Source of the DNA: Camelus dromedarius
Taxonomy: Eukaryota
Direction of reading: 5' to 3'
NCBI RefSeq assembly: GCF_036321535.1
Contig: NC_087436.1
Span: 31,622,001 to 31,686,000, forward strand
DNA: 64,000 nucleotides
Part shown: positions 1-59,780 of the stretch, piece by piece
Position numbering within the stretch: the first letter of the stretch is position 1
Layout of the letters: every line of letters begins with the position of its first letter
Notes under the pieces: generated by a model
The model's input: the letters and a program-made list of their open reading frames with translations, nothing else
The model's database searches: none
Told to the model about the DNA's origin: nothing
Made by a program: the position numbers and the translations under genes

Positions 1-380
1 AAGTGAAATAAGTCAGAGAAAGATAAATACCATACGATTTCACTTATATGTGCAATCTTAAAAATGAAGCATATAAACATAACAGTGGAAACAGAGCTAT
101 AGAAACAGTGAACAAACAAGTGGTTTTCAGAGGGGGTTTGTAGAGGTTGAGGGATAAGTGAAGTGCAGGAGTATATTAAGAGGCAGACTTACAGTCATAA
201 AATAAGTCATAGGGATGTACTGTACAACATAGGAAATATAGACAATAAAATAGTGTAATAACATTGGTGACAATGGTAACTAGACTTACTGTGGTGATCA
301 TTTTGTAATGTATAAAAACATTGAATCACTGTGTTGTACACCTAAAACTGATAGAACATTGTGAGCCAATTATACTTCAG
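1..380 (+). mobile_element. 3' end of an older LINE-1 (L1MA-like ORF2 terminus and 3'UTR); outermost host of the nest
   Basis: The stretch aagtgaaataagtcag...tcacttatatgtg...tgtacacctaaaact...caattatacttcag is a typical L1 3' terminus. Its A-tail resumes at 4972. Confidence 0.85.
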
Positions 381-2626
381 CTTTTTTTTTTTTTACAGCT
401 ATGGAAAATACTTTTTAAAAATTTTTTTTAACATTTTTTAATTGAGTTATAGTCATTTTACAATGTTGTGTCAAATTCCAGTGTAGAGCACAATTTTTTA
501 GTTATACATGAACATACATATATTCATTGCCACATTATTTTTCACTGTGAGCTACCACAAGATCTTGTGTATATTTCCCTGTGCTATACAATATAATCTT
601 GCTTATCTATTCTGCATATGCCTGTCAACATCTACAAATTTTGAACTCCCAGTCTGTCCCTTCCCACCCTCCTACCCCTTGGCAACCTCAAGTTTGTATT
701 CTATGTGTATGAGTCTGTTTCTGTTCTGTATTTGTGTTCTTTTTTTTTTTTTTTTTTTTTTTAGATTCCACATATGAGCGATCTCATGTGGTATTTTTTC
801 TTTCTCTTTCTGGCTTACTTCACTTAGAATGACATTCTCAAGCGACATCCATGTTGCTGCAAATGGCGTTATGTTGTCTTTTTATGGCTAAACAGTACTC
901 CATTGTGTAAATATACCACCACTTCTTTATCCAGTTGTCTGTTGATGGACATTTAGGCTGTTTCCATGTCTTGGCTATTGTAAATAGTGCTGCTATGAAC
1001 ATTGGGGTGCAGGTGTCTTTTTGAAGTAGGGTTCCTTCTGGATATATGCCCAGGAGCAGGATCCCTGGGTCATATGGTAATTCTATTCCTAGTCTTTTGA
1101 GGAATCTCCATACTGTTTTCCACAGTGGCTGCACCAAAGTACATTCCCACCAGCAGAGTAGGAGGGTTCCCTTTTTCCACAGCCTCTCCAGCATTTGTAA
1201 TTTGTGGACTTTTGAATGATGGCCATTCTGACTGGTGTGAGGTAATACCTCATCGTAGTTTTGATTTGCATTTCTCTGATAATTAGTGATATTGAGCATT
1301 TTTTCATGTGCCTATTGATCATTTGTGTTTCTTCCTTGGAGAATTGCTTGTTGAGGTCTTCTGCCCATTTTTGGATTGGGTTGTTTGTTTTTTTCTTATT
1401 AAGTCATATGAGCTGCTTATGTATTGTGAAGATCAAGCCTTTGTCGGTTTCATTGTTTGCAAAAATTTTCTCCCATTCCGTAGGTTGTTGCTTTGTTTTG
1501 CTTATGGTTTCCTTTGCTGTGCAGAAGGTTGTAAATTTCATTAGGTCCCATTTGTTTATTCTTGCTTTTATTTCTATTGCTTGGGTAGACTGCCCTAGGA
1601 GAACATTTTTGAGATGTATATGAGATAATGTTTTGCCTGTATTTTCTTCTAGGAGGTTTATTGAATCTTGTCTTATGTTTAAGTCTTTGATCCATTTTGA
1701 GTTTATTTTTGTGTATGGTGTAAGGGAGTGTTCTAGCTTCATTAATTTACATACTGCTGTCCAGTTTTCCCAACACCATTTGTTGAAGAGACTGTCTTTT
1801 TTTTTTTTAACATTTTTTTTTTATTGAGTAATAGTCATTTTACAATGTTGTGTCAAATTCCAGTGTGGAGCACAATTTTCAGTTATACATGAACATACAT
1901 ATATTCATTGTCACATTTTGTTTTTCACTGTGAGCTACCACAAGATCTTGTATATATTTCCCTGTGCTATATACAATATAATCTTGTTTATCTGTTCTAA
2001 ATTTTAAAATCCCAGTCTGTCCCTTCCCACCCCGCTACCCCTGGGCAACCACAAGTTTGTATTCTATGTCTGTGAGTCTGTTTTCTGTTTTGTATTTATG
2101 TTCTTTTTTTTTTTTTTTTTTTAAGATTTCACATATGAGTGATCTCATATGGTATTTTTCTTTCTCTTTCTGGCCTACTTCACTTAGAATGACGGGGAAC
2201 ATCCATGTTGCTGCAAGTGGCGTTATGTTGTTGGGTTTTGTGGCTGAATATATTCCATTGTGTAAATATACCACCACTTCTTTATCCAGTTGTCTGTTGA
2301 TGGACATTTAGGCTGTTTCCATGTCTTGGCTATTGTAAATAGTGCTGCTATGAACATTGGGGTGCAGGTGTCTTTTTGAAGTAGGGTTCCTTCTGGATAT
2401 ATGCCCAAGAGGGGGATCCCTGGGCCATATGATAATTCTATTCCTAGTCTTTCGAGGAATCTCCATACTGTTTTCCACAGTGGCTTTCCTTGCTTCCCTC
2501 TCCCACTCTTAATGATTTAGATGTCTTCTTTTACAATTTTGTGTTTATTCTATTTGTAATTCATGGTAGTTATCACTTTTCCAGTTAGAAGTTTCTCATT
2601 TTTGTAACATCCTGCTTCTTTTCTAT

Positions 2627-3524
2627 TTAGAGTAGACCTATCAGTATTTCTTTTAGCATGGGTTTCGTGTTGCTAAACTCTTAGTTTTTGCTTGTCTGTG
2701 AAGTTCTTTATCTCTCCTTCTATTCTAAAGGATAGCCTTGCTGGATAGAGTATCCTAGGCTGCACCTTTTTTTCACTCAGGACTTTGAATATATCTTGCC
2801 ACCCTCTTCTGGCCTGTAGTGTTTGTGTAGAGAAATCAGCTGAGAGCCTTATGGCGGTTCCCTTGTAACTCACTCTTTGTTTTTCTCTTGCTGCCTTTAG
2901 GATCATTTCTTTATCCTTGACGCTGACCATCTTGATTATGTATGTCTTGGTGTGTTTCTGTTTGGGTTCTTCCTGTTTGGGACCCTATGAGCCTCCTATA
3001 CTTGGATATCTGATTCCTTCTTTAGGTTTGGGAAGTCTTCAGTCATGATTTCTTCAAAGACCTTTTCAATCCCCTTTGTTCTTTCTTCCCCTTCTGGAAC
3101 CCCTATTATGCATAGATTGGCACGCTTTATATTATCCCATAGATCCCTTATATTGTTTTCATTTTTTTTTATTTGTTTTCCTCTTAGCTGTTTTGATTGG
3201 GTGCTTTCTGTTGTCCTGTCTTCTAGGTCACTTATTCGTTCCTCTGCATTATCTAGCCTGCTTTGTACAGCCTTTAGTTCAGCTCTCATCTCAGCAAATG
3301 AGTTTACTAATTCTACTTGGTTCTTCTTTATAAATTCTATTTCATTTTTGACATTTTATATCTCTAAACACTATTTCTTTTATTTCTTTCAGTACTTTGA
3401 TTACTCCTTTTTTGAAATCTTGATCTAGTAGGTCATCAATGTCTATTTCCTTGATCATGCTTTCAAGGGATTTCTCTTGATCTCTTAATTGAGAGTAGTT
3501 CCTCTGCTTCTTCATATTGCTCAT
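2627..3524 (-). pseudogene. L1 ORF1p, broken by frameshifts and stops
   Basis: Three ORF pieces: MSNMKKQRNYSQ..., ...EERISDLED...LWDNIKRANLCIIGVPEGEE..., and ...ILKAAREK...IRLSADFS...ARRGW...YPARLSF. These carry the diagnostic ORF1p motifs. Confidence 0.92.
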
Positions 3525-3539
3525 ATCTCTCTGGCAATG

Positions 3540-4652
3540 GTGGGCAGGTGGGTCATTCCCCCTACCGATGTCACAATCAGATGCTGTGTTCGGGTGAGGC
3601 AGGTGGGCAGATCACGCCCCCTCCCAGCACCGTGGTCAGGTGCTGCGTTCCTGCCAGGAAGGCGGGTCGCTGCTCGCCCTCTGCCTGCGCCAGTTGCTCT
3701 GCTTCTCTGTGCAGTTGCCCGCTCCACCTCGGGTCGGCGCTCCGTAGGCGGGCTCAGGAAAGACTCAGAACAGCCCTGCCCCTGCTCCGTGACAAATCTC
3801 AGCTCCTTGTTTGTCTTGGCAGTACGAGTTCTCTGAGGTGCCAGGGCAGAAAGATCTTACCTACTTTGGGCTGTAAACAAGTCTCAGTCCTGCCTAGGAG
3901 GTTGTGGAGCCCCCGGGTGCAGAGTCAGGGCTTGGCCCCGGCTCCGACCCCGACCAGGTGCTGCGCACAGGAGGATATGGCAGCTGTGTCTGCGCCCTGC
4001 CTCTCTTCTCGCGAGAAGCACCAGTAATGGCACCGTGGTCTGAGGAGACAAAGGCTACAGCACCTCTCCCCCCAGGGCACACCAGATGTGTTGCTTTGCT
4101 TTTTTCTCAATTTATGGGGGACCGAGGTTGTTCTGCTCCGTATCCCCTCCCAGCCATGGCGCACAGCACCCTGCGGTCCCCCAGGGCTTCCTCAGTGCAG
4201 CCGCCCCAGTCCTCCACCAGCTCGGGCAGCCTGTCCTGGCCCCCAGCTGCCAGCTCACATCTCGGGCTGGGTGTCACAGGGACCCTCTGTGCCTGTTTAA
4301 CTTAGTTCTGTCGGACAAGGGGTGCTCTGGGCAGATCTGAGCCTCGGAGGCTACCCCTCCGTCCCGCTGACCTCTCCGTTGGAAGAGGGAGACCCAGTGA
4401 ATGAGCACTAGTCCTCCTTTGCCGCTCCCTCCCTGCAGGACCGGTCCCGCACTGTTTTGCTTTTTCTTCTTTCTTTTTTCCTTTTGTCCTACCAGATTTT
4501 TGGCGTCTTTGTCTTTCGAAGAGGGCAGTGTTCTATAGGAGTTTGGCAGGTGCTCTGGTTGGCTGAGTGGGTCCGTAGATGTGAGTTTTGGTAAATTTGT
4601 GGGAGAGGTGAGCTACAAGCATCCTTCTACTCCTCCATCTTGCTTCTCTCCC
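3540..4652 (-). promoter_or_regulatory. GC/CpG-rich L1 5'UTR (internal Pol II promoter region)
   Basis: The only strongly CpG-rich block in the window. A YY1-like aagatgg motif sits at the element's 5' end. Activity is not shown by the sequence. Confidence 0.65.
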
Positions 4653-6155
4653 TGAAGAGACTGTCTTTATTCCATTGTATATTCTTGCCTCCTTTGTCAA
4701 AGATTAGTTGACCAAAAGTTAGTGGGTTCATTTCTGGGCTCTCGATTCTGTTCCATTGGTCCATATGTCTGTTTTTGTATCAATACCATGCTGTCTTGAT
4801 TACCGTAGCTCTATAGTATTGTCTGAAGTCTGGGAGAGTTATTACTCCAGCCTCTTTCTTTTTTTCAGTAATGCTTTGACAATTCTGGGTCTTTTGTGGT
4901 TCCATATAAATTTGATCATGATTTGTTCTAGTTCTGTGAAACATGTCCTGGGTAATTATACTTCAGTTTTTAAAAAGTGACCTTGCAAGCTAAAATCTTG
5001 GGAGTGATGTTTATAGTCAATGGCTTAAAATTATTGTTTGGGACCTTCAAAACATTTTTCCAAAATACTAAAAACTGTCTTACTTTTGATTAAAACTTTA
5101 CTGTTTGTTATAAATGATAAGTTTTTTTTGTTACAAAGAAAGGAAATATCTTAATTCTTAACTTTATAATTTTAAATAGGTGTACTAAATAAATATAATT
5201 TTACTATTATATAGTTTCATTTCATTGTTAGTTAAAAAGTATTAGCGGACAGCTAAATTGATTAAGATGGAAATATTTGTATGGTGGGAAAGAAGGAATA
5301 TTATGCCATCCTTAAAATATCTACAGAAAACTTTATAATATGGGAGAATGCTTTTGTTTCAGTAATACACTTTAAAAAGCAGATTATAATAGCAATGTGT
5401 CCACTTTTAATGGAGAGTAAAAACTCTGCTAGAAAATACATTACAGCATTATTAATGGTTTTTCTCTGAGATTTGGTATGTCTTTTTTGTTAAACTCTTG
5501 TTATATTTATGTATTGATAATTTTTATCTTATGCAAATGTCATTTTATATCAGAGAGTAAGTACTTCTAATACTATAAGATATTTAAAAGTAAGAACCTT
5601 ATGTTACTGATACTTCTAAGTACTTAAAAAAATTTTCGTTAGAGAATAATTAGCAGTTGTCCTTTTTTTAGGGAGTAATGAAGTTTCTTGTTTTTGATGA
5701 GGTATTTGTCTTATGAGCTTCATTGTATTTGATGAACTTTGTTTTCAATAAATATATTTTTAAAATTAAGATTGGATTTTTTCTAGTTTCAAAGAAGATT
5801 TTTTCCTTTGGTAGATAATTCTGTTTAAATTATTTTAGAGAGATGGATGTAACTCTGGAAAATTTTTATCTTGAGATGTGTTTATAATAATATTTTCTGC
5901 TTATAATATAAATTGTTTTCAAATTTTTCTAATGTTATGAAATGTTTTTCCTTCTAGGTTCATATAATTTTGATATAAAAATCTAATTAGTCTTTTAAGT
6001 TGAACCTTTTTATGCTTTTTTAAAAATTTTAAAGCATGAAATATAATTTAATGTAAGATTAAAGTTGAATTTAAGGTTTCCTAGGTATGATCAAGCTTAT
6101 TAAGAATGTGCTGGAAAAGAAAGCCTCTAGTCTTGATTTCATAACCATGAATAAT

Positions 6156-6294: not shown

Positions 6295-7221
6295 TGCTTA
6301 ATAAAGCTAAACAAGCAATTCTCCAAGGAAGGCATACAAATGATCAATAGGCACATGAAAAAATGCTCAATATCAGTAATTATCAGAGAAATGCAAATCA
6401 AAACTACAATGAGGTATCACCTCACACCAGTCAGAATGGTCATCATTCAAAACTCCACAAATGATAAATGCTGGAGAGGCTGTGGAGAAAATGGAATCCT
6501 TCTACACTGTTGGTAGGAATACAGTTTGGTGCAGCCATTGTGGAAAACAGTATGGAAATTCCTCAGAAAACTAATAATAGACTTACCATATGACCCAGCA
6601 ATCCCACTTCTATGCATATATCCACAGGGAACCCTACTTTAGAAAGACATCTGCACCCCAATGTTCATAGCACTATTGACAATAGCCAAGACATGGAAAC
6701 AATCTATATATCCATTGACAGATGACTGGATAAAGAAGATGTGGTATATTTATACAATGGAATACTACTCAGCCATAAAAAATGATAAAATAATGCTATT
6801 TGCAGCAACATGGAAGAATGTCATTCTAAGTGAAATAAGCCAGAAAGAGAAAGAAAAATACCATATGATATCACTCATATGTGGTATCTAAAAAAAAAAA
6901 AAAAAAAGACAGATGAACTTAATATATAAAACAGAAACAGACTTTCAGACATAGAATACAGACTTGTGGTTGCAGTGCAGAGAGGGGTTGGAAGGGATAA
7001 ACTGGGAGTTCGAGATTTGCAGATACTGACTGTTATATATAAAATAGATAAACAAGATTATACTGTATAGCACAGGGAAATATATTCAATATCTTGTAGT
7101 AGCTTATGGTGGAAAAGAATATGAAAATTAATATATGTATATTCATGTATGATTGAAGAATTGTACCATACACCAGAAATTGACAACATTGTAAATTGTT
7201 TATACCTCAGTAAAAAAAAGA
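6295..7221 (+). mobile_element. 5'-truncated L1 (ORF2 tail and 3'UTR)
   Basis: Encodes [14 protein letters not shown]...YHMISLICGI. TSD aaaattccatttcc (6281-6294) and aaaatcccatttcc (7222-7235), preceded by TTT/AAAA. Confidence 0.92.
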
Positions 7222-25941: not shown

Positions 25942-26092
25942 TTTTTGTCTTTTTTAATTTGTATTATTTTATTTTGGTGGGGGTAGGGAGATAATTAGGT
26001 TTATTTATTTTTTAGAAGAGGTACCATAGATTGAACCCAGGACCTCGTGCATGCTAAGCATGCTCTCTACAACTTGAGCTATACCCCTCCCC
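25942..26092 (-). mobile_element. Camelid Vic-1-type tRNA-derived SINE, full length
   Basis: Minus strand reads ggggaggggtatagctcaagttgtagag (A box) ... ggttcaatc (B box) ... aaataaacctaatta, then an A-rich tail. Degenerate TSD acagtagtcatt / acaatagtcgtt. Confidence 0.85.
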
Positions 26093-37699: not shown

Positions 37700-39960
37700 T
37701 CCAATAATGGTGGATTTGTGAAAGGCCTATGCAAACCTTCTCATATATAATAGTTAAAAAATTGGATAAGTTTTTTGAAACACTGCAAAGCACCCCAAAA
37801 CAGAAAGACACTGAAAGAGAGAATTATGAGTTTTTAACTTTCTGACCTGAGAGTTCTCCCTAACCCCTACAGCTATGCTTCAGAAAACAAAAGCTTTATA
37901 TGCACTTATAGTGGCGCCCAAGATCAAAGTTTAGGGCTCAGTTGAGAATTTAAAGAAGAAATATTAGCAGCAAGAGAGCCACACAAACGATAAAAATTGA
38001 GACCCAAATTCTGAGTATAAACTGACCAGGTTCATAACTGACAGTCAAACTAAGTGTCCAGGGCTAGGATAGGGTCCCCAGGAACCCAGTGAAGAAGTAG
38101 GCAGAGACCTGAGAGAAATCTGCTCTTGAAAGATACAGCTGTATGGAACTAGATATTTAGGTTTGCTGCTTTTTATAATTGAGTGCATTCCCAAAATGTG
38201 TGCAGCTTGAGCAGGAAAGCTGAAGCATGAGTGTTTGAATATCTGTGGACAGAACCTAAAGCTGGCAGAGCAGCTGGAAATTACAAGGGGATCTCTAAGA
38301 GCAACAAACAACAAAGAGGATGAGCCCTACCTCTACCCAGATCTTGACTAATCCTCACATTACACAGACACAGTGAGTTTCCTGGGAGCCTAGCAAAAAA
38401 ATTTAACAGTGGAAAGAAATTAGACTCATCACAGATGGCAGCTGCTACATACTGTGGGGAAGACACTTCAGAGTTTGAGTCTAGGCAAGATAATTGCCTA
38501 ACTGAGCAAAAAAGCTAATAATCTTCAAAAGAGCAAAACAGAATCCAGAGAAACAACGATACATTATCTTTGTTATCCAATTTTCAACCAAAACTTACTA
38601 GACACTGAAGCGTGACTGCTAGGGGGAGGGTGAAAGAGGAAAGTCAATAGAAACTCACTTTCAGTGAGTTTGGATTTAGCTGTTGGATTTAACAGGCAGA
38701 GACTTCAAATAAGCTATTATGTTCAAGGAATTAAAATCTATTTTTAAATTACAGTAAAATATGTTTCAGTGAAGGAACAGATAGAGAATTTTTAATTGAG
38801 AACTAGAAAATAATTTTAAAAATAGAAATTCTAGAGTTTGAAAGTAAAACAACCCAAATAAAAATGTCATTAGATGGCTTCAAAAGTTAATTGGAAAAAG
38901 CAAAATAATCACTGAACTTGAAGACTGATCAATAGAAACGTTCCTATTCAAAGAATAGAGTTTAAAAGATGGAAGAAAAATGAACAGAACCTCAGTGATC
39001 TGTGGGACAATATGAAGCAAGCCAATGCAAGTGTGGTTGGAATAGGGGTAGGGGAGTGGGAGCAGTGCAGAAAAGATGTTCAAAGAAATAATAGCTGAAA
39101 TCTTTCAAAATTTAGTGGAAAACATTAACAGAGCCAAGGATCTCATTGAACCCTTAGCGAGATGAATACAAAGAAAATCACTTTCAACACATCATGACAA
39201 CACCGACAGCCAGTTAAAAAGAGAAAACTTAAAAGCAGCAGTAGAAAAATGGCGTGAACAGGGAAATAGAGATAAGAATAATGGCTGACTTCTCAAGAAA
39301 TTGTGGAAGCAGAAAACACTGGAGTAATATATCTGAACTGCTGAAGGGAAAAATAATGCTCATTAAGAATTCTGTGTCCAGTGAAACTGTGCTTCAAAAA
39401 TGAGGGCAAAATAAAGGCATTTTCAGGTAAACAAAAACTGAGAAAATGTGTCACTTAGTAGCTGTTCTTCAAAAAATTCTTTAGGCTGAAAGGAAATAAC
39501 ATCAGTTGGCAACTCAGATGTAAGAAGAAATTAAGAGCAACAGGAATTTTAAATATGAAAGATATATATACATACTTTTCTTTTCTCTTATTAGTACCTT
39601 AAAAGACTTGAATGCTAAAAGCAGAACTTAACACTATTTGATGGGCTTATAAAGTATGTAGGTATAATATATGACAACAATGACACTAAAGACTAGGATG
39701 ATACATGGAAATAAATACACTGTTGCAAGGTTCCAGTGTTTTCTCTGAATTAATTAACTATTAACTAAATAAATTGGGATAAGTTAGAGATGCAAATTGT
39801 AGCTAGGGCAACCACTAAAAAATAATTCAAAGAGGTATAACTAAAAACCAATAGAAGACCACCAAAAAAGGCCAGAAAGGATGAACAGGAAATTTTTTAA
39901 AGATGGTGCAAATAGAACCTGTTCATTTATTTTGAAGCAACACTGTTCAAAAAAGAAATA
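37700..39960 (+). mobile_element. Old L1M 5'UTR-ORF1 relic
   Basis: gatctgtgggacaatatgaagcaagccaat (DLWDNMKQAN), atggctgacttctca and ccagtgaaactgtgcttcaaaaatgagggc are decayed ORF1 motifs. Confidence 0.75.
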
Positions 39961-54361: not shown

Positions 54362-54420
54362 TCTTTTTTTTTAAACATTTTTTATTGAGTTACAGTCATT
54401 TTACAATGTTGTGTCAAATT
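54362..54420 (-). mobile_element. ~60-bp 3' tip of the young L1 family
   Basis: tttaaacattttttattgagttacagtcattttacaatgttgtgtcaaatt is nearly identical to 427-477. Confidence 0.85.
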
Positions 54421-55014: not shown

Positions 55015-55134
55015 CAAGTGAAAGGTAATTAGGTTTATTTATACGTTTTTTTTCAGTGGAGGTACTGCGGATTGAACCCAGGACCTTGTGCATGCTATAC
55101 ATGTGCTTTACCACTTGAGCTATACCCTCCCCCC
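55015..55134 (-). mobile_element. Vic-1-type SINE
   Basis: Minus strand reads gggggagggtatagctcaagtggtaaagcac...ggtcctgggttcaatccgcagtacctcc...aataaacctaattacc. Confidence 0.85.
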
Positions 55135-56125: not shown

Positions 56126-56203
56126 GGGGAGGGATGTAGCTTAGTGGTGGAGTGCGTGCTTAGCATGCACGAGGTCCTGGGTTCAATCCCCCCAGTAACT
56201 CGA
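56126..56203 (+). mobile_element. Vic-1-type SINE, tRNA-like head only
   Basis: Sequence ggggagggatgtagcttagtggtggagtgcgtgcttagcatgcacgaggtcctgggttcaatcccc. Degenerate TSD at 56107-56125 / 56204-56222. Confidence 0.85.
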
Positions 56204-57574: not shown

Positions 57575-59780
57575 CTTTGAGAATCATATAAATAAATGCA
57601 GAAAAAGCATTTGACTGAATCCAGCACCCATTTATGATAAGAACTCTCAGTATACTAGGAACAAAAGGGAACTTCCTCAGTTTGATAAAGAATAGCTACA
57701 AAAAACCTACAGTTATGAAACTGAAAACTTTCGCACTAAGATCAGGAACAAGGCAAGGATGTCCCCTCTCACTACTACTTTTCAGCATCATACTGGAAGT
57801 ACTAGTTAATGCAGTTTGCCACCCTCAAAAGGAAATAAAAGGTATACTTTGCAGATAACATAGTTGTCCATGTAAAAAATCCAAAGAAAAAAGGAGAGAC
57901 TTGGAACAAAGAAGTGATTATAGCAAGGTTGTAGGATAAAAGATTAATATACAGGTCGATTGCTTTCCTATATACCAGCAATGAACAAGTAGAATTTGAA
58001 ATAAAAACCTAATACTATTACATTATCACCCCCAAAATTAAATAAATGTAAATATAACCAAATATATAAAATCTATATGAGGAAAACTACAAAACTCTAC
58101 TGAAAGATATCAGAGAAGAACTGAAAAAATGAATGAAGTACATGTTCATGGACAGGAAGATACAATATTTTCCATATGTCATTTCTTCCCAACTTGATGT
58201 ATAGATTTTTTACAATTCCAGTCAAAATCACTGCAAGTTATATTGTGTATTTTGGCAATCTGATTCTAAAGTTTCTATGGAGAGGCAAAAGACCCAGAAT
58301 AGCCAACTCATTATTGAAGAAGAGGAACAAAGTCAGAGGATTGACACTGTACCAGACTTCAAGAGTTACTCTAAACCTTCAGTAGTCAAGACAAAGTGAT
58401 ATTGGTGAAAGAATAGACAAATAGATCAAAGGAACAGAATATAGAACCCAGAAATAAACTCACATAAATACAGTCAGCTGATCTTTTACAAAGAAGCAAA
58501 GGCAATACAATGGAGCAAAGATAGTCTTTTAAACAAATGGTACTAGAACAATTAGACATCCACATGTAGAATAATGAATCTAGACACAGACCTTACACAA
58601 AAATTAATCCAAAATGGTTCACTGACAAAAATGCAAAACACAAAACTGTAAAACTCATCTAAGATAGCATAGGAGAAAATCTAGATAATCTTGGGTTTGG
58701 CAATGAGTTTTTAGATACAACACCAAAGCTATGATCCATGAAAGAAACAGCTGGTAAGTTGGACTTCACTGAAATTAAAATCTTCTTCTCTGTGAAAGAC
58801 ACTATCAAGAAAATGAAAATTCAAATCATGGATTGGGAGAAAATATTTACAAAAGGCATATCTGATAAAGGGCTGTTACCCAAAATAATTCAAAGAACTC
58901 TTAAAACTCAACAGTAAGAAAACAAACAACTTGATTAAAAAATTGGCCAAAGACCTTAATAGTCACCTCACCAAAGAAGGTTTACAGATGACAAATAAGC
59001 ATATGAAAAATACTTCCAAATCATATGTCAAAATGCAAATTAAAACAATAATGATTGTAAATCAACTATACTTCAGTAAAAGAAATAAAAAATTAAAAAC
59101 TTTAAAACCTTTTAAAATTAAAAAATAAAATCAAGCTATAATGAGATACCACTCATTACACCAAGTAAGTGCCAGATACACTTATTAGAATGGCCAGAAT
59201 CTGGAACACTGACACCATCAAATGCTGACAGAGAAATGGAGCAGTAGAACTCTCAGTTGCTGCTAATGGGAATGCAAAATGATACAGCCACCTTTGAAAG
59301 CAGTTTGGTGGTTTCTTAGAAAACTAAATATACTCTTACCATAGGATCCAACAGCTGCATTCTTTTGTATTTAGCCAAAGGAGTTGAAACTTATGTTCAC
59401 GTGAAAACCTGCTGATGGATGTTTATAGCAGCCTTTTTCAGAATTACAAAAAGGGGTTGAGGAGGATAGAGAGATGAATAGGGGCATAGGCAAAGCACAG
59501 AGGATTTTTAGGACCATGAAATTGTTCTGTCATTATAAATTTCTCCAGACCCATAAAGTGTACAACACCAAGAGTGAACTCTAATGTAAACTCTGGACTC
59601 TAGGTGATAATATTGTGAGATGTACTTACATCAGTTTTAACAAATATACCACTACATTGCAGAATGTGGATAATGGGGGAGGCTATGCATGTACAGGGTC
59701 TGGAAATACAGGGGAAATCGGAGACTTCCCCTCAATGTTGCTGTGAATGTAAAACTATTCTAAAAATAGTCTGTTAAGAA
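57575..59780 (+). mobile_element. L1MC-like element, decayed ORF2 RT/C-terminal region and 3'UTR; small L1 tip inserted at ~59055-59127
   Basis: Peptides LRSGTRQGCPLSLLLFSIILEVL and LILKFLWRGKRPRIA. 3'UTR gtacaacaccaagagtgaac...tgctgtgaa. Confidence 0.88.

What the first reader, a model, noticed from the sequence alone, without database searches (positions are those of the whole stretch)
1800..4652. TSD-bounded ORF1-only L1: candidate camelid half-L1 (HAL1-like) or spliced L1 retrocopy
Seen: a 2.85-kb minus-strand element between perfect 16-bp TSDs has an intact L1 5' end, a ~1.1-kb 5'UTR, all of ORF1 (now broken) and ~140 bp of spacer. At 2485/2486 it jumps straight to the tail of ORF2, so the endonuclease and RT domains are absent. 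The junction reads ...gaagcaaggaaAG-CCACTGTGG. The undeleted neighbour (1120-1140, minus strand) reads ...tactttggtgcAG-CCACTGTGG, so the right breakpoint falls exactly at a CAG. Established: HAL1 elements are ORF1-only non-autonomous L1 derivatives that arose repeatedly in mammals, and spliced L1 RNAs can retrotranspose. Inference: this could be one copy of a non-autonomous family mobilised in trans, a reverse-transcribed spliced L1 mRNA, or a one-off AG-microhomology deletion. I do not know of such a family being described in camelids, but I cannot search.
Basis: partly seen in the sequence, partly recalled or inferred. Interest (0 to 1): 0.72.

Follow-up and report, generated by a model that had tools for sequence, protein, structure and literature searches.

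The report
Half-length L1 family lacking ORF2
This is a decayed copy of a shortened LINE-1 jumping gene that kept its promoter and first gene but lost its copying enzymes, and it probably belongs to a multi-copy family that borrows those enzymes from intact LINE-1s.

Summary
The structure is real: a 2,853-bp minus-strand L1 between identical 16-bp TSDs, with a 1.13-kb 5'UTR, a broken 300-codon ORF1 and a 141-bp spacer joined to ORF2 at about residue 1150. Splicing is not supported. Undeleted copies continue GGAAA|TATAG, so the removed piece has AT..GC or TA..CA ends, the two sides share one base, and the break lies inside the CAG. A one-off deletion is unlikely. Contig depth across the junction in 3 of 3 DNA runs needs a junction-spanning class at 25-50% of local depth, about 90-190 single-copy depths. 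This is inferred from binned depth. No second locus was seen, 0 of 24 listed long contigs span the junction, and only about 2 of 25 RNA reads do. A rival model without that class fits the bins almost as well and is rejected only by checks on how the tool clips. Best reading: an independently arisen, fairly young HAL1-like family mobilised in trans, probably camelid. I found no camelid HAL1 in nine paper searches; Repbase and Dfam could not be checked.

The parts
4653..4668 (-). 5' target-site duplication (16 bp)
   Evidence: Identical to 1784-1799. The empty site reads 5'-CTTT/A-3' on the + strand, one mismatch from the TTTT/A endonuclease consensus given in PMC5860796 (passage).
3525..4652 (-). 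L1 5'UTR with presumed internal promoter, apparently complete
   Evidence: 59% GC, CpG o/e 0.45; abuts the TSD. That the start looks like an L1 5' end is recalled, not tested; promoter activity is inferred.
2627..3524 (-). ORF1 (300 codons), broken in this copy
   Evidence: Pfam Tnp_22_trimer, Transposase_22, Tnp_22_dsRBD; tblastn to P0122 in four pieces at 75-88% identity, frame changes near 3354, 2981-2942 and 2681; stop near 2996. The 2-base gap near 2681 behaves as private to this copy (tables 4 and 7).
2486..2626 (-). First 141 bp of the inter-ORF spacer
   Evidence: Thousands of contigs lay on it; undeleted copies continue beyond 2485 into TATAG and a T-run.
2484..2486 (-). Deletion junction; base 2485 (A) fits either side
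   Evidence: Loose ends at 2485 in 4 of 4 runs (table 7); alignment with the two undeleted L1 tails in the window.
2121..2484 (-). C-terminal remnant of ORF2, from about residue 1150 (human numbering)
   Evidence: phmmer E 9e-32 to ORF2p residues 1150-1232; 88% DNA identity to the host L1 tail. No Pfam hit.
1800..2120 (-). 3'UTR and A-rich tail
   Evidence: Aligns with the host and third L1 3' ends; carries a 22-bp gap absent from both.
1784..1799 (-). 3' target-site duplication (16 bp)
381..4953 (-). Host: older 5'-truncated L1 interrupted by the element inside ORF2 (near residue 920)
   Evidence: 13-bp TSD at 368-380 and 4954-4966; window 1407-1820 matches ORF2p residues 922-1057.

Best explanation
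It is one decayed copy of a non-autonomous, ORF1-only L1 family (HAL1-like) that arose independently from a young L1 of this lineage, probably camelid. One deletion with a single shared base removed the rest of the spacer and about 90% of ORF2 from a full-length L1 (shown for the structure; whether it was a template jump during reverse transcription or a DNA break repair is not known). The product kept the 5'UTR promoter, ORF1 and the 3' end with its A-tail, so it could be transcribed, make ORF1p in cis and borrow ORF2p from intact L1s (inferred from HAL1 biology). It spread to the order of 100 or more copies (inferred from depth). This copy inserted by target-primed reverse transcription into an older L1 (shown by TSD, A-tail, endonuclease-type site) and then decayed.
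For: TSD, tail and anatomy. In DNA runs X1, X3, X4 depth rises across the 30 tail-side bases (201k/263k/319k; 248k/359k/451k; 320k/511k/654k) with no notch at the junction. A least-squares fit of the first 6 of 30 bins gives error 0.5-1.4% with a junction class against 10-14% without; share 0.32, 0.37, 0.50; about 130-190 single-copy depths per start. The fitted minimum match (26-28) agrees with 26-27 from the far edge alone. An internal control, the private gap at 2681-2683, gives a spanning share of 0.38, 0.25, 0.48, or 93-172 single-copy depths. Contigs with a different letter reach past the junction at 2494 (X1) and 2510 (X3, X4) (table 3). About 2 raw RNA reads cross it. The window's own letters at 7 near-fixed differences hold only 0.3-5.6% of depth, so it is not this locus that is amplified.
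Against: No second locus with its own TSD was seen. 0 of 24 listed long contigs span the junction and 6 of 24 stop at 2485 (about 4 distinct loci; chance 0.20 at a share of 0.33, 0.06 at 0.5). Only about 2 of 25 RNA reads span (P 0.004 at 0.33 over all reads; 0.19 over the about 12 young-type reads), and they may be one molecule or the orthologous locus. A model without a junction class fits at 1.6-2.3% error if the tool laid 7-9 mismatched overhang letters; it is rejected only by checks on tool behaviour. The tool itself warns that summed contig depth is no copy number. Six bins, up to four fitted values.
Confidence: 0.76

Rival explanations
1. One-off internal deletion in this copy, made during its insertion or afterwards in the chromosome; no family.
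For: One-base microhomology suits a template jump or end joining. 0 of 24 listed long contigs span the junction. The end-to-end overhang model fits the bins at 1.6-2.3% error, with overhangs close to what an 80% threshold would allow. Junction 34-mer absent from metagenome contigs, but so was the spacer control, so that is uninformative.
Against: The tool appears to clip: at the private mismatch 2666, depth away from ends equals total depth (ratio 0.9998-1.0, against 0.82-0.90 relative to bin means elsewhere); the farthest reach at 2494 is exactly 10 in X3 and X4; RNA bin 3 equals 2 + 14/10; the private gap makes a deeper notch than the junction. With clipping, no junction-free fit is better than 10%.
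Confidence: 0.11
2. The same junction was made many times independently from full-length L1 RNAs, by a recurrent template jump or non-spliceosomal RNA join just before the U-rich spacer tract, so the copies are dead-end siblings and not descendants of a master.
For: Depth shows many copies but not their ancestry. The left break lies 9 bases before a long T-run (table 7).
Against: An exact recurrent join with one shared base has no evident guide; the joined RNA has no unusual fold (z 0.63). A single master is simpler.
Confidence: 0.06
3. Retrocopy of a spliced L1 mRNA (SpIRE-like).
For: A CAG lies at the right break; spliced L1 RNAs do retrotranspose (PMC5860796, passages).
Against: Undeleted copies read GGAAA|TATAG, so the removed ends are AT..GC or TA..CA, and on the other strand GC..AT or TG..TA. 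The AG is kept in the element. SpIREs are described as dead ends with damaged promoters, unlike this element.
Confidence: 0.03
4. A junction-bearing locus elsewhere was multiplied by segmental or tandem duplication, not by retrotransposition.
Against: This copy has its own TSD and private changes, and those private letters are rare in the runs.
Confidence: 0.04

Closest known systems
HAL1 (half-L1) elements of mammals
   Same: L1-derived, ORF1 without ORF2 enzymes, A-tail and TSDs, dependent on L1 RT/EN in trans, several independent origins (PMC5753468, PMC5322556, PMC5786205; passages).
   Different: Not descended from the ancient mammal-wide HAL1: its ORF1p is 82-89% identical to intact-looking L1 ORF1p and its tail 88% to the neighbouring L1. 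It keeps about 120 codons of ORF2. I could not read the defining paper (Bao and Jurka 2010), so its species list is unchecked.
SpIREs (spliced integrated retrotransposed elements)
   Same: Internally shortened L1 inserted by TPRT.
   Different: SpIREs have SD/SA ends in the 5'UTR or ORF1 and lose promoter function (PMC5860796, passages). Here the ends are not splice sites, the 5'UTR is kept and ORF2 is lost.
Repbase alpaca L1 families L1-1_Vpa, L1-2_Vpa, L1-3_Vpa
   Same: Likely parent families; listed with coordinates up to 6,207, 5,791 and 5,168 in a camelid annotation table (PMC6726744 supplement 4).
   Different: Those are ORF2-length consensus entries; the element is 2,853 bp. I could not align to them. 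The 6 HAL1 entries in that table are bat and tree-shrew names, but it covers only a 190-kb region.
Bipartite ORF1-present non-autonomous LINEs (HeT-A, Ag-Sponge)
   Same: Internal deletion keeping 5' part, ORF1 and 3' part (PMC5786205, passage).
   Different: Other LINE clades (Jockey, CR1) and other hosts.

Membership tests
HAL1-type non-autonomous L1 | L1-derived, encodes ORF1 but no ORF2 endonuclease or RT | tested here: met
   ORF1 domains present; only ORF2 residues from about 1150 remain.
HAL1-type non-autonomous L1 | A-tail and target-site duplication (inserted as a unit by TPRT) | tested here: met
   16-bp TSD and A-rich tail.
HAL1-type non-autonomous L1 | Multi-copy family sharing the same structure at dispersed loci | tested here: inconclusive
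   Depth modelling points to about 90-190 single-copy depths of junction words in 3 of 3 DNA runs; no second locus with flanks was seen.
HAL1-type non-autonomous L1 | Master copies with intact ORF1, kept under selection | not testable with these tools
   This copy is broken; one break (near 2681) looks private. Junction-bearing copies could not be separated from full-length ones.
HAL1-type non-autonomous L1 | Mobilised by L1 ORF2p in trans | not testable with these tools
   Inferred from the missing enzymes and the endonuclease-type site.
Ancient mammal-wide HAL1 (human HAL1 lineage) | Descent from the ancient HAL1 and deep divergence from current L1 | tested here: not met
   7 near-fixed differences in 271 bases (2.6%) from the majority of laid L1 contigs; ORF1p 82-89% identical to close L1 ORF1p.
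SpIRE / spliced L1 retrocopy | Removed segment bounded by GT-AG (or GC-AG, AT-AC) | tested here: not met
   Ends AT..GC or TA..CA.

The most novel reading that the evidence does not exclude
The junction is made again and again from full-length L1 RNA by a precise non-spliceosomal route (RT jump or RNA cut and join just before the spacer's U-tract), so that up to a quarter to a half of young ORF1-bearing insertions are ORF1-only products. This would be a recurring mechanism for the birth of half-L1s.
Probability: 0.06. Interest if true: 0.8.

Novelty: new member of a known kind. Interest (0 to 1): 0.52.

Why it matters
ORF1-only L1 parasites are known, but most are old or have an unclear parent. 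A family about 2.6% from the majority L1 sequence, with a base-exact breakpoint and a near-identical parent, would let one test how half-L1s arise, whether their own ORF1p is needed, and whether they compete with the parent for ORF2p. Its share differed between runs (0.32, 0.37, 0.50), which may reflect lineage-specific spread. A camelid repeat survey that keyed on RT and endonuclease (PMC8605555, section 15) would not see it.

Tried and rejected
No whole genome was held, so a direct junction search was not possible. Junction 34-mer in metagenome contigs: 0. Spacer 26-mer in metagenome, genome and viral contigs: 0, 0, 0, so those collections lack this L1 and the null says nothing. Protein search with the junction-spanning frame: none of the best 120 of 275 hits matched the first ten residues closely. 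ORF1p relatives P0121 and P0122 gave no loci and their clusters carry no names. A spacer-ORF2-tail fusion protein was rejected: the in-frame stop at 2519-2517 is the majority letter, other letter 0.9-5.5% of DNA depth. No special RNA fold at the junction. A 6-base match (GTGGGA) 15 bases upstream on both parents was not the crossover point, since the spacer is kept beyond it. No host gene found: 1 of 138 long frames hit Pfam, a weak RVT_1 (138 of 214 frames of 55 aa or more were given). Earlier findings of the scan: none in 3 look-ups.

Full report
Observation. The element runs from 4652 to 1800 on the minus strand between identical 16-bp repeats at 1784-1799 and 4653-4668. It has a GC-rich 5'UTR of 1,128 bp, an ORF1 from 3524 to 2627 that matches a 300-aa intact L1 ORF1p along its length in four frame pieces, 141 bp of spacer, and then an ORF2 remnant matching human ORF2p residues 1150-1232 (E 9e-32), a 3'UTR and an A-rich tail. 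ORF1 has three frameshifts and at least one stop. The element interrupts ORF2 of an older 5'-truncated L1 near residue 920; that host has its own 13-bp TSD. The empty site reads 5'-CTTT/A-3', close to the endonuclease consensus in PMC5860796 (passage).

The junction. No genome was held, so I laid four public runs from four coded organisms on window 2456-2755: three DNA runs kept as contigs (X1, X3, X4) and one raw single-cell RNA run (X22, about 1 in 100 read). Only 30 bases of ORF2 tail were included. In all four, a main loose end lies at 2485 (41, 33, 41 contigs; 14 reads; agreement 0.75-0.80). On the element strand undeleted copies read GGAAA, then TATAG and a T-run. The two undeleted tails in the window read GGTGCAGCCA. 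So the two sides share one A, and the removed segment has AT..GC or TA..CA ends. The break lies inside the CAG, not after it. Splicing is not supported on either strand. This rests on consensus neighbours; the actual parent copy is unknown.

One copy or a family. Summed contig depth rises steadily over the three tail-side bins and has no notch at the junction. I modelled 31-letter contigs of three kinds (tail only, undeleted spacer, junction) on the first 6 of 30 bins. Without a junction class the best error was 9.9, 11.5 and 14.0%; with it 1.4, 0.5 and 1.4%, at shares 0.32, 0.37 and 0.50 and about 130-190 single-copy depths per start (single-copy depth taken as the median of the 8 listed long contigs per run: 41, 72, 95). 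With contigs of 35 or 41 letters the gap narrows but holds (1.7-4.8% against 7.5-13.4%). The fitted minimum match of 26-28 letters agrees with 26-27 from the far edge alone. A second estimate used the 2-base gap near 2681, private to this copy, as a control for a unique break: recovery after the junction is faster than after the gap in 3 of 3 runs, implying shares of 0.38, 0.25 and 0.48. Contigs carrying a different letter reach beyond 2485 at 2494 in X1 (22 against a bound of 10) and at 2510 in X3 and X4 (29 and 31 against 26); these could also be alleles of the orthologous locus. The window's own letters at 7 near-fixed differences hold 0.3-5.6% of depth, so this locus itself is not amplified.

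Results against. None of the 24 listed long contigs spans the junction and 6 stop at 2485. Only about 2 of 25 RNA reads span it. About half of those reads carry older-subfamily letters (14 of 26 at 2494), and 2 of 12 is compatible with a third (P 0.19), but 2 of 25 is not (P 0.004). Depth sums favour short, high-copy contigs, so the true share among all ORF1-bearing copies is probably lower than fitted. A rival with no junction class fits at 1.6-2.3% error if mismatched overhangs of 7-9 letters were laid, which is about what the 80% threshold would allow. I reject it because the tool appears to clip: at the private mismatch 2666 total depth equals depth away from ends (0.9998-1.0), the reach at 2494 stops exactly at 2485 in X3 and X4, and the RNA bin equals 2 + 14/10. 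That is inference about a tool whose rules I cannot see, and the tool warns that summed depth is no copy number. No second locus was seen.

Mechanism. Shown: insertion as a unit, loss of EN and RT, a non-splice junction with one shared base. Inferred: a single deletion made a master that kept promoter, ORF1 and 3' end; ORF2p came in trans; the family reached the order of 100 or more copies. HAL1 elements are described as ORF1-only, A-tailed, TSD-flanked, dependent on L1 RT/EN and of several independent origins (PMC5753468, PMC5322556, PMC5786205, PMC4161310; passages). This copy differs from the majority at 7 of 271 bases, 2.6% (66 weaker rows were not shown). At a recalled mammalian neutral rate that is roughly 10 million years, a loose figure. 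The ORF2 remnant is probably not translated, since an in-frame stop precedes it in most copies.

Host. No tool named the species. The nearest named ORF1p relatives are pig (62%) and porpoise (53%). The 14 best holders are contig sets of 1.9-2.3 Gb from four coded organisms, with word shares of 0.53-0.60. The window holds three short tRNA-derived SINEs; a simple SINE, vic-1, is known in camels (PMC3531059, passage), but the match is recalled, not tested. Camelid is likely.

Novelty. Nine full-text searches (listings seen) showed no camelid HAL1. PMC8605555 (passages and section 15) never mentions ORF1 and keyed on RT and endonuclease; its supplements could not be read and may bear on this. PMC5203782 has no HAL1, Camelus or Vicugna in its main text. 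PMC6726744 supplement 4 lists L1-1, L1-2 and L1-3_Vpa and only bat and tree-shrew HAL1 names, for 190 kb. PMC13756887, PMC7830431 and PMC3342881 were seen as passages; the last shows abundant HAL1 families in bats. Bao and Jurka 2010 was not held, and Repbase and Dfam could not be searched, so an existing entry is not excluded.

Verdict. A real ORF1-only L1 insertion, not a splice product, and most likely (0.76) one copy of an independently arisen HAL1-like family. It works like a HAL1 and meets the structural tests; the multi-copy test is indirect. New member of a known kind, interest 0.52.

Noticed in passing
window 368-421 and 4954-4966: The host L1 has a 13-bp TSD, and about 30 extra bases lie between its A-rich end and a second A-run; possibly a short 3' transduction.
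   Followed up: partly
window 6307-7219 (+): A third, older 5'-truncated L1 3' end, 79% identical to the element's tail and undeleted at the junction site.
   Followed up: partly
window 25989-26092 (-), 55023-55132 (-), 56126-56201 (+): Three short tRNA-derived SINEs, 79-88% alike; one reaches the Rfam tRNA threshold. Probably the camelid vic-1 type (recalled).
   Followed up: partly
window 54364-54420: A 57-bp L1 3' tip, 95% identical to the host L1's end.
   Followed up: no
window 1800-2484: The element has a 22-bp gap in the 3'UTR absent from both neighbours and a 6-bp gap near the ORF2 end relative to the host (the third copy has its own gap there); possible family markers.
   Followed up: no
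window 2523-2592, 2582-2686, 2587-2687 (table 5): Other joined forms in single contigs; the 68-base skip 2523-2592 has depth 729 in X3 and 1,348 in X4 and none in X1, perhaps a spacer variant with several copies.
   Followed up: no
window 2592 and 2681 (table 7): Recurrent loose ends show older L1 subfamilies with different spacer and ORF1 end sequences in all four runs.
   Followed up: no
window 38964-39440 (+) and 57619-59054 (+): Old L1 fragments: ORF1-like at 28% identity and RT-like, weak RVT_1.
   Followed up: no
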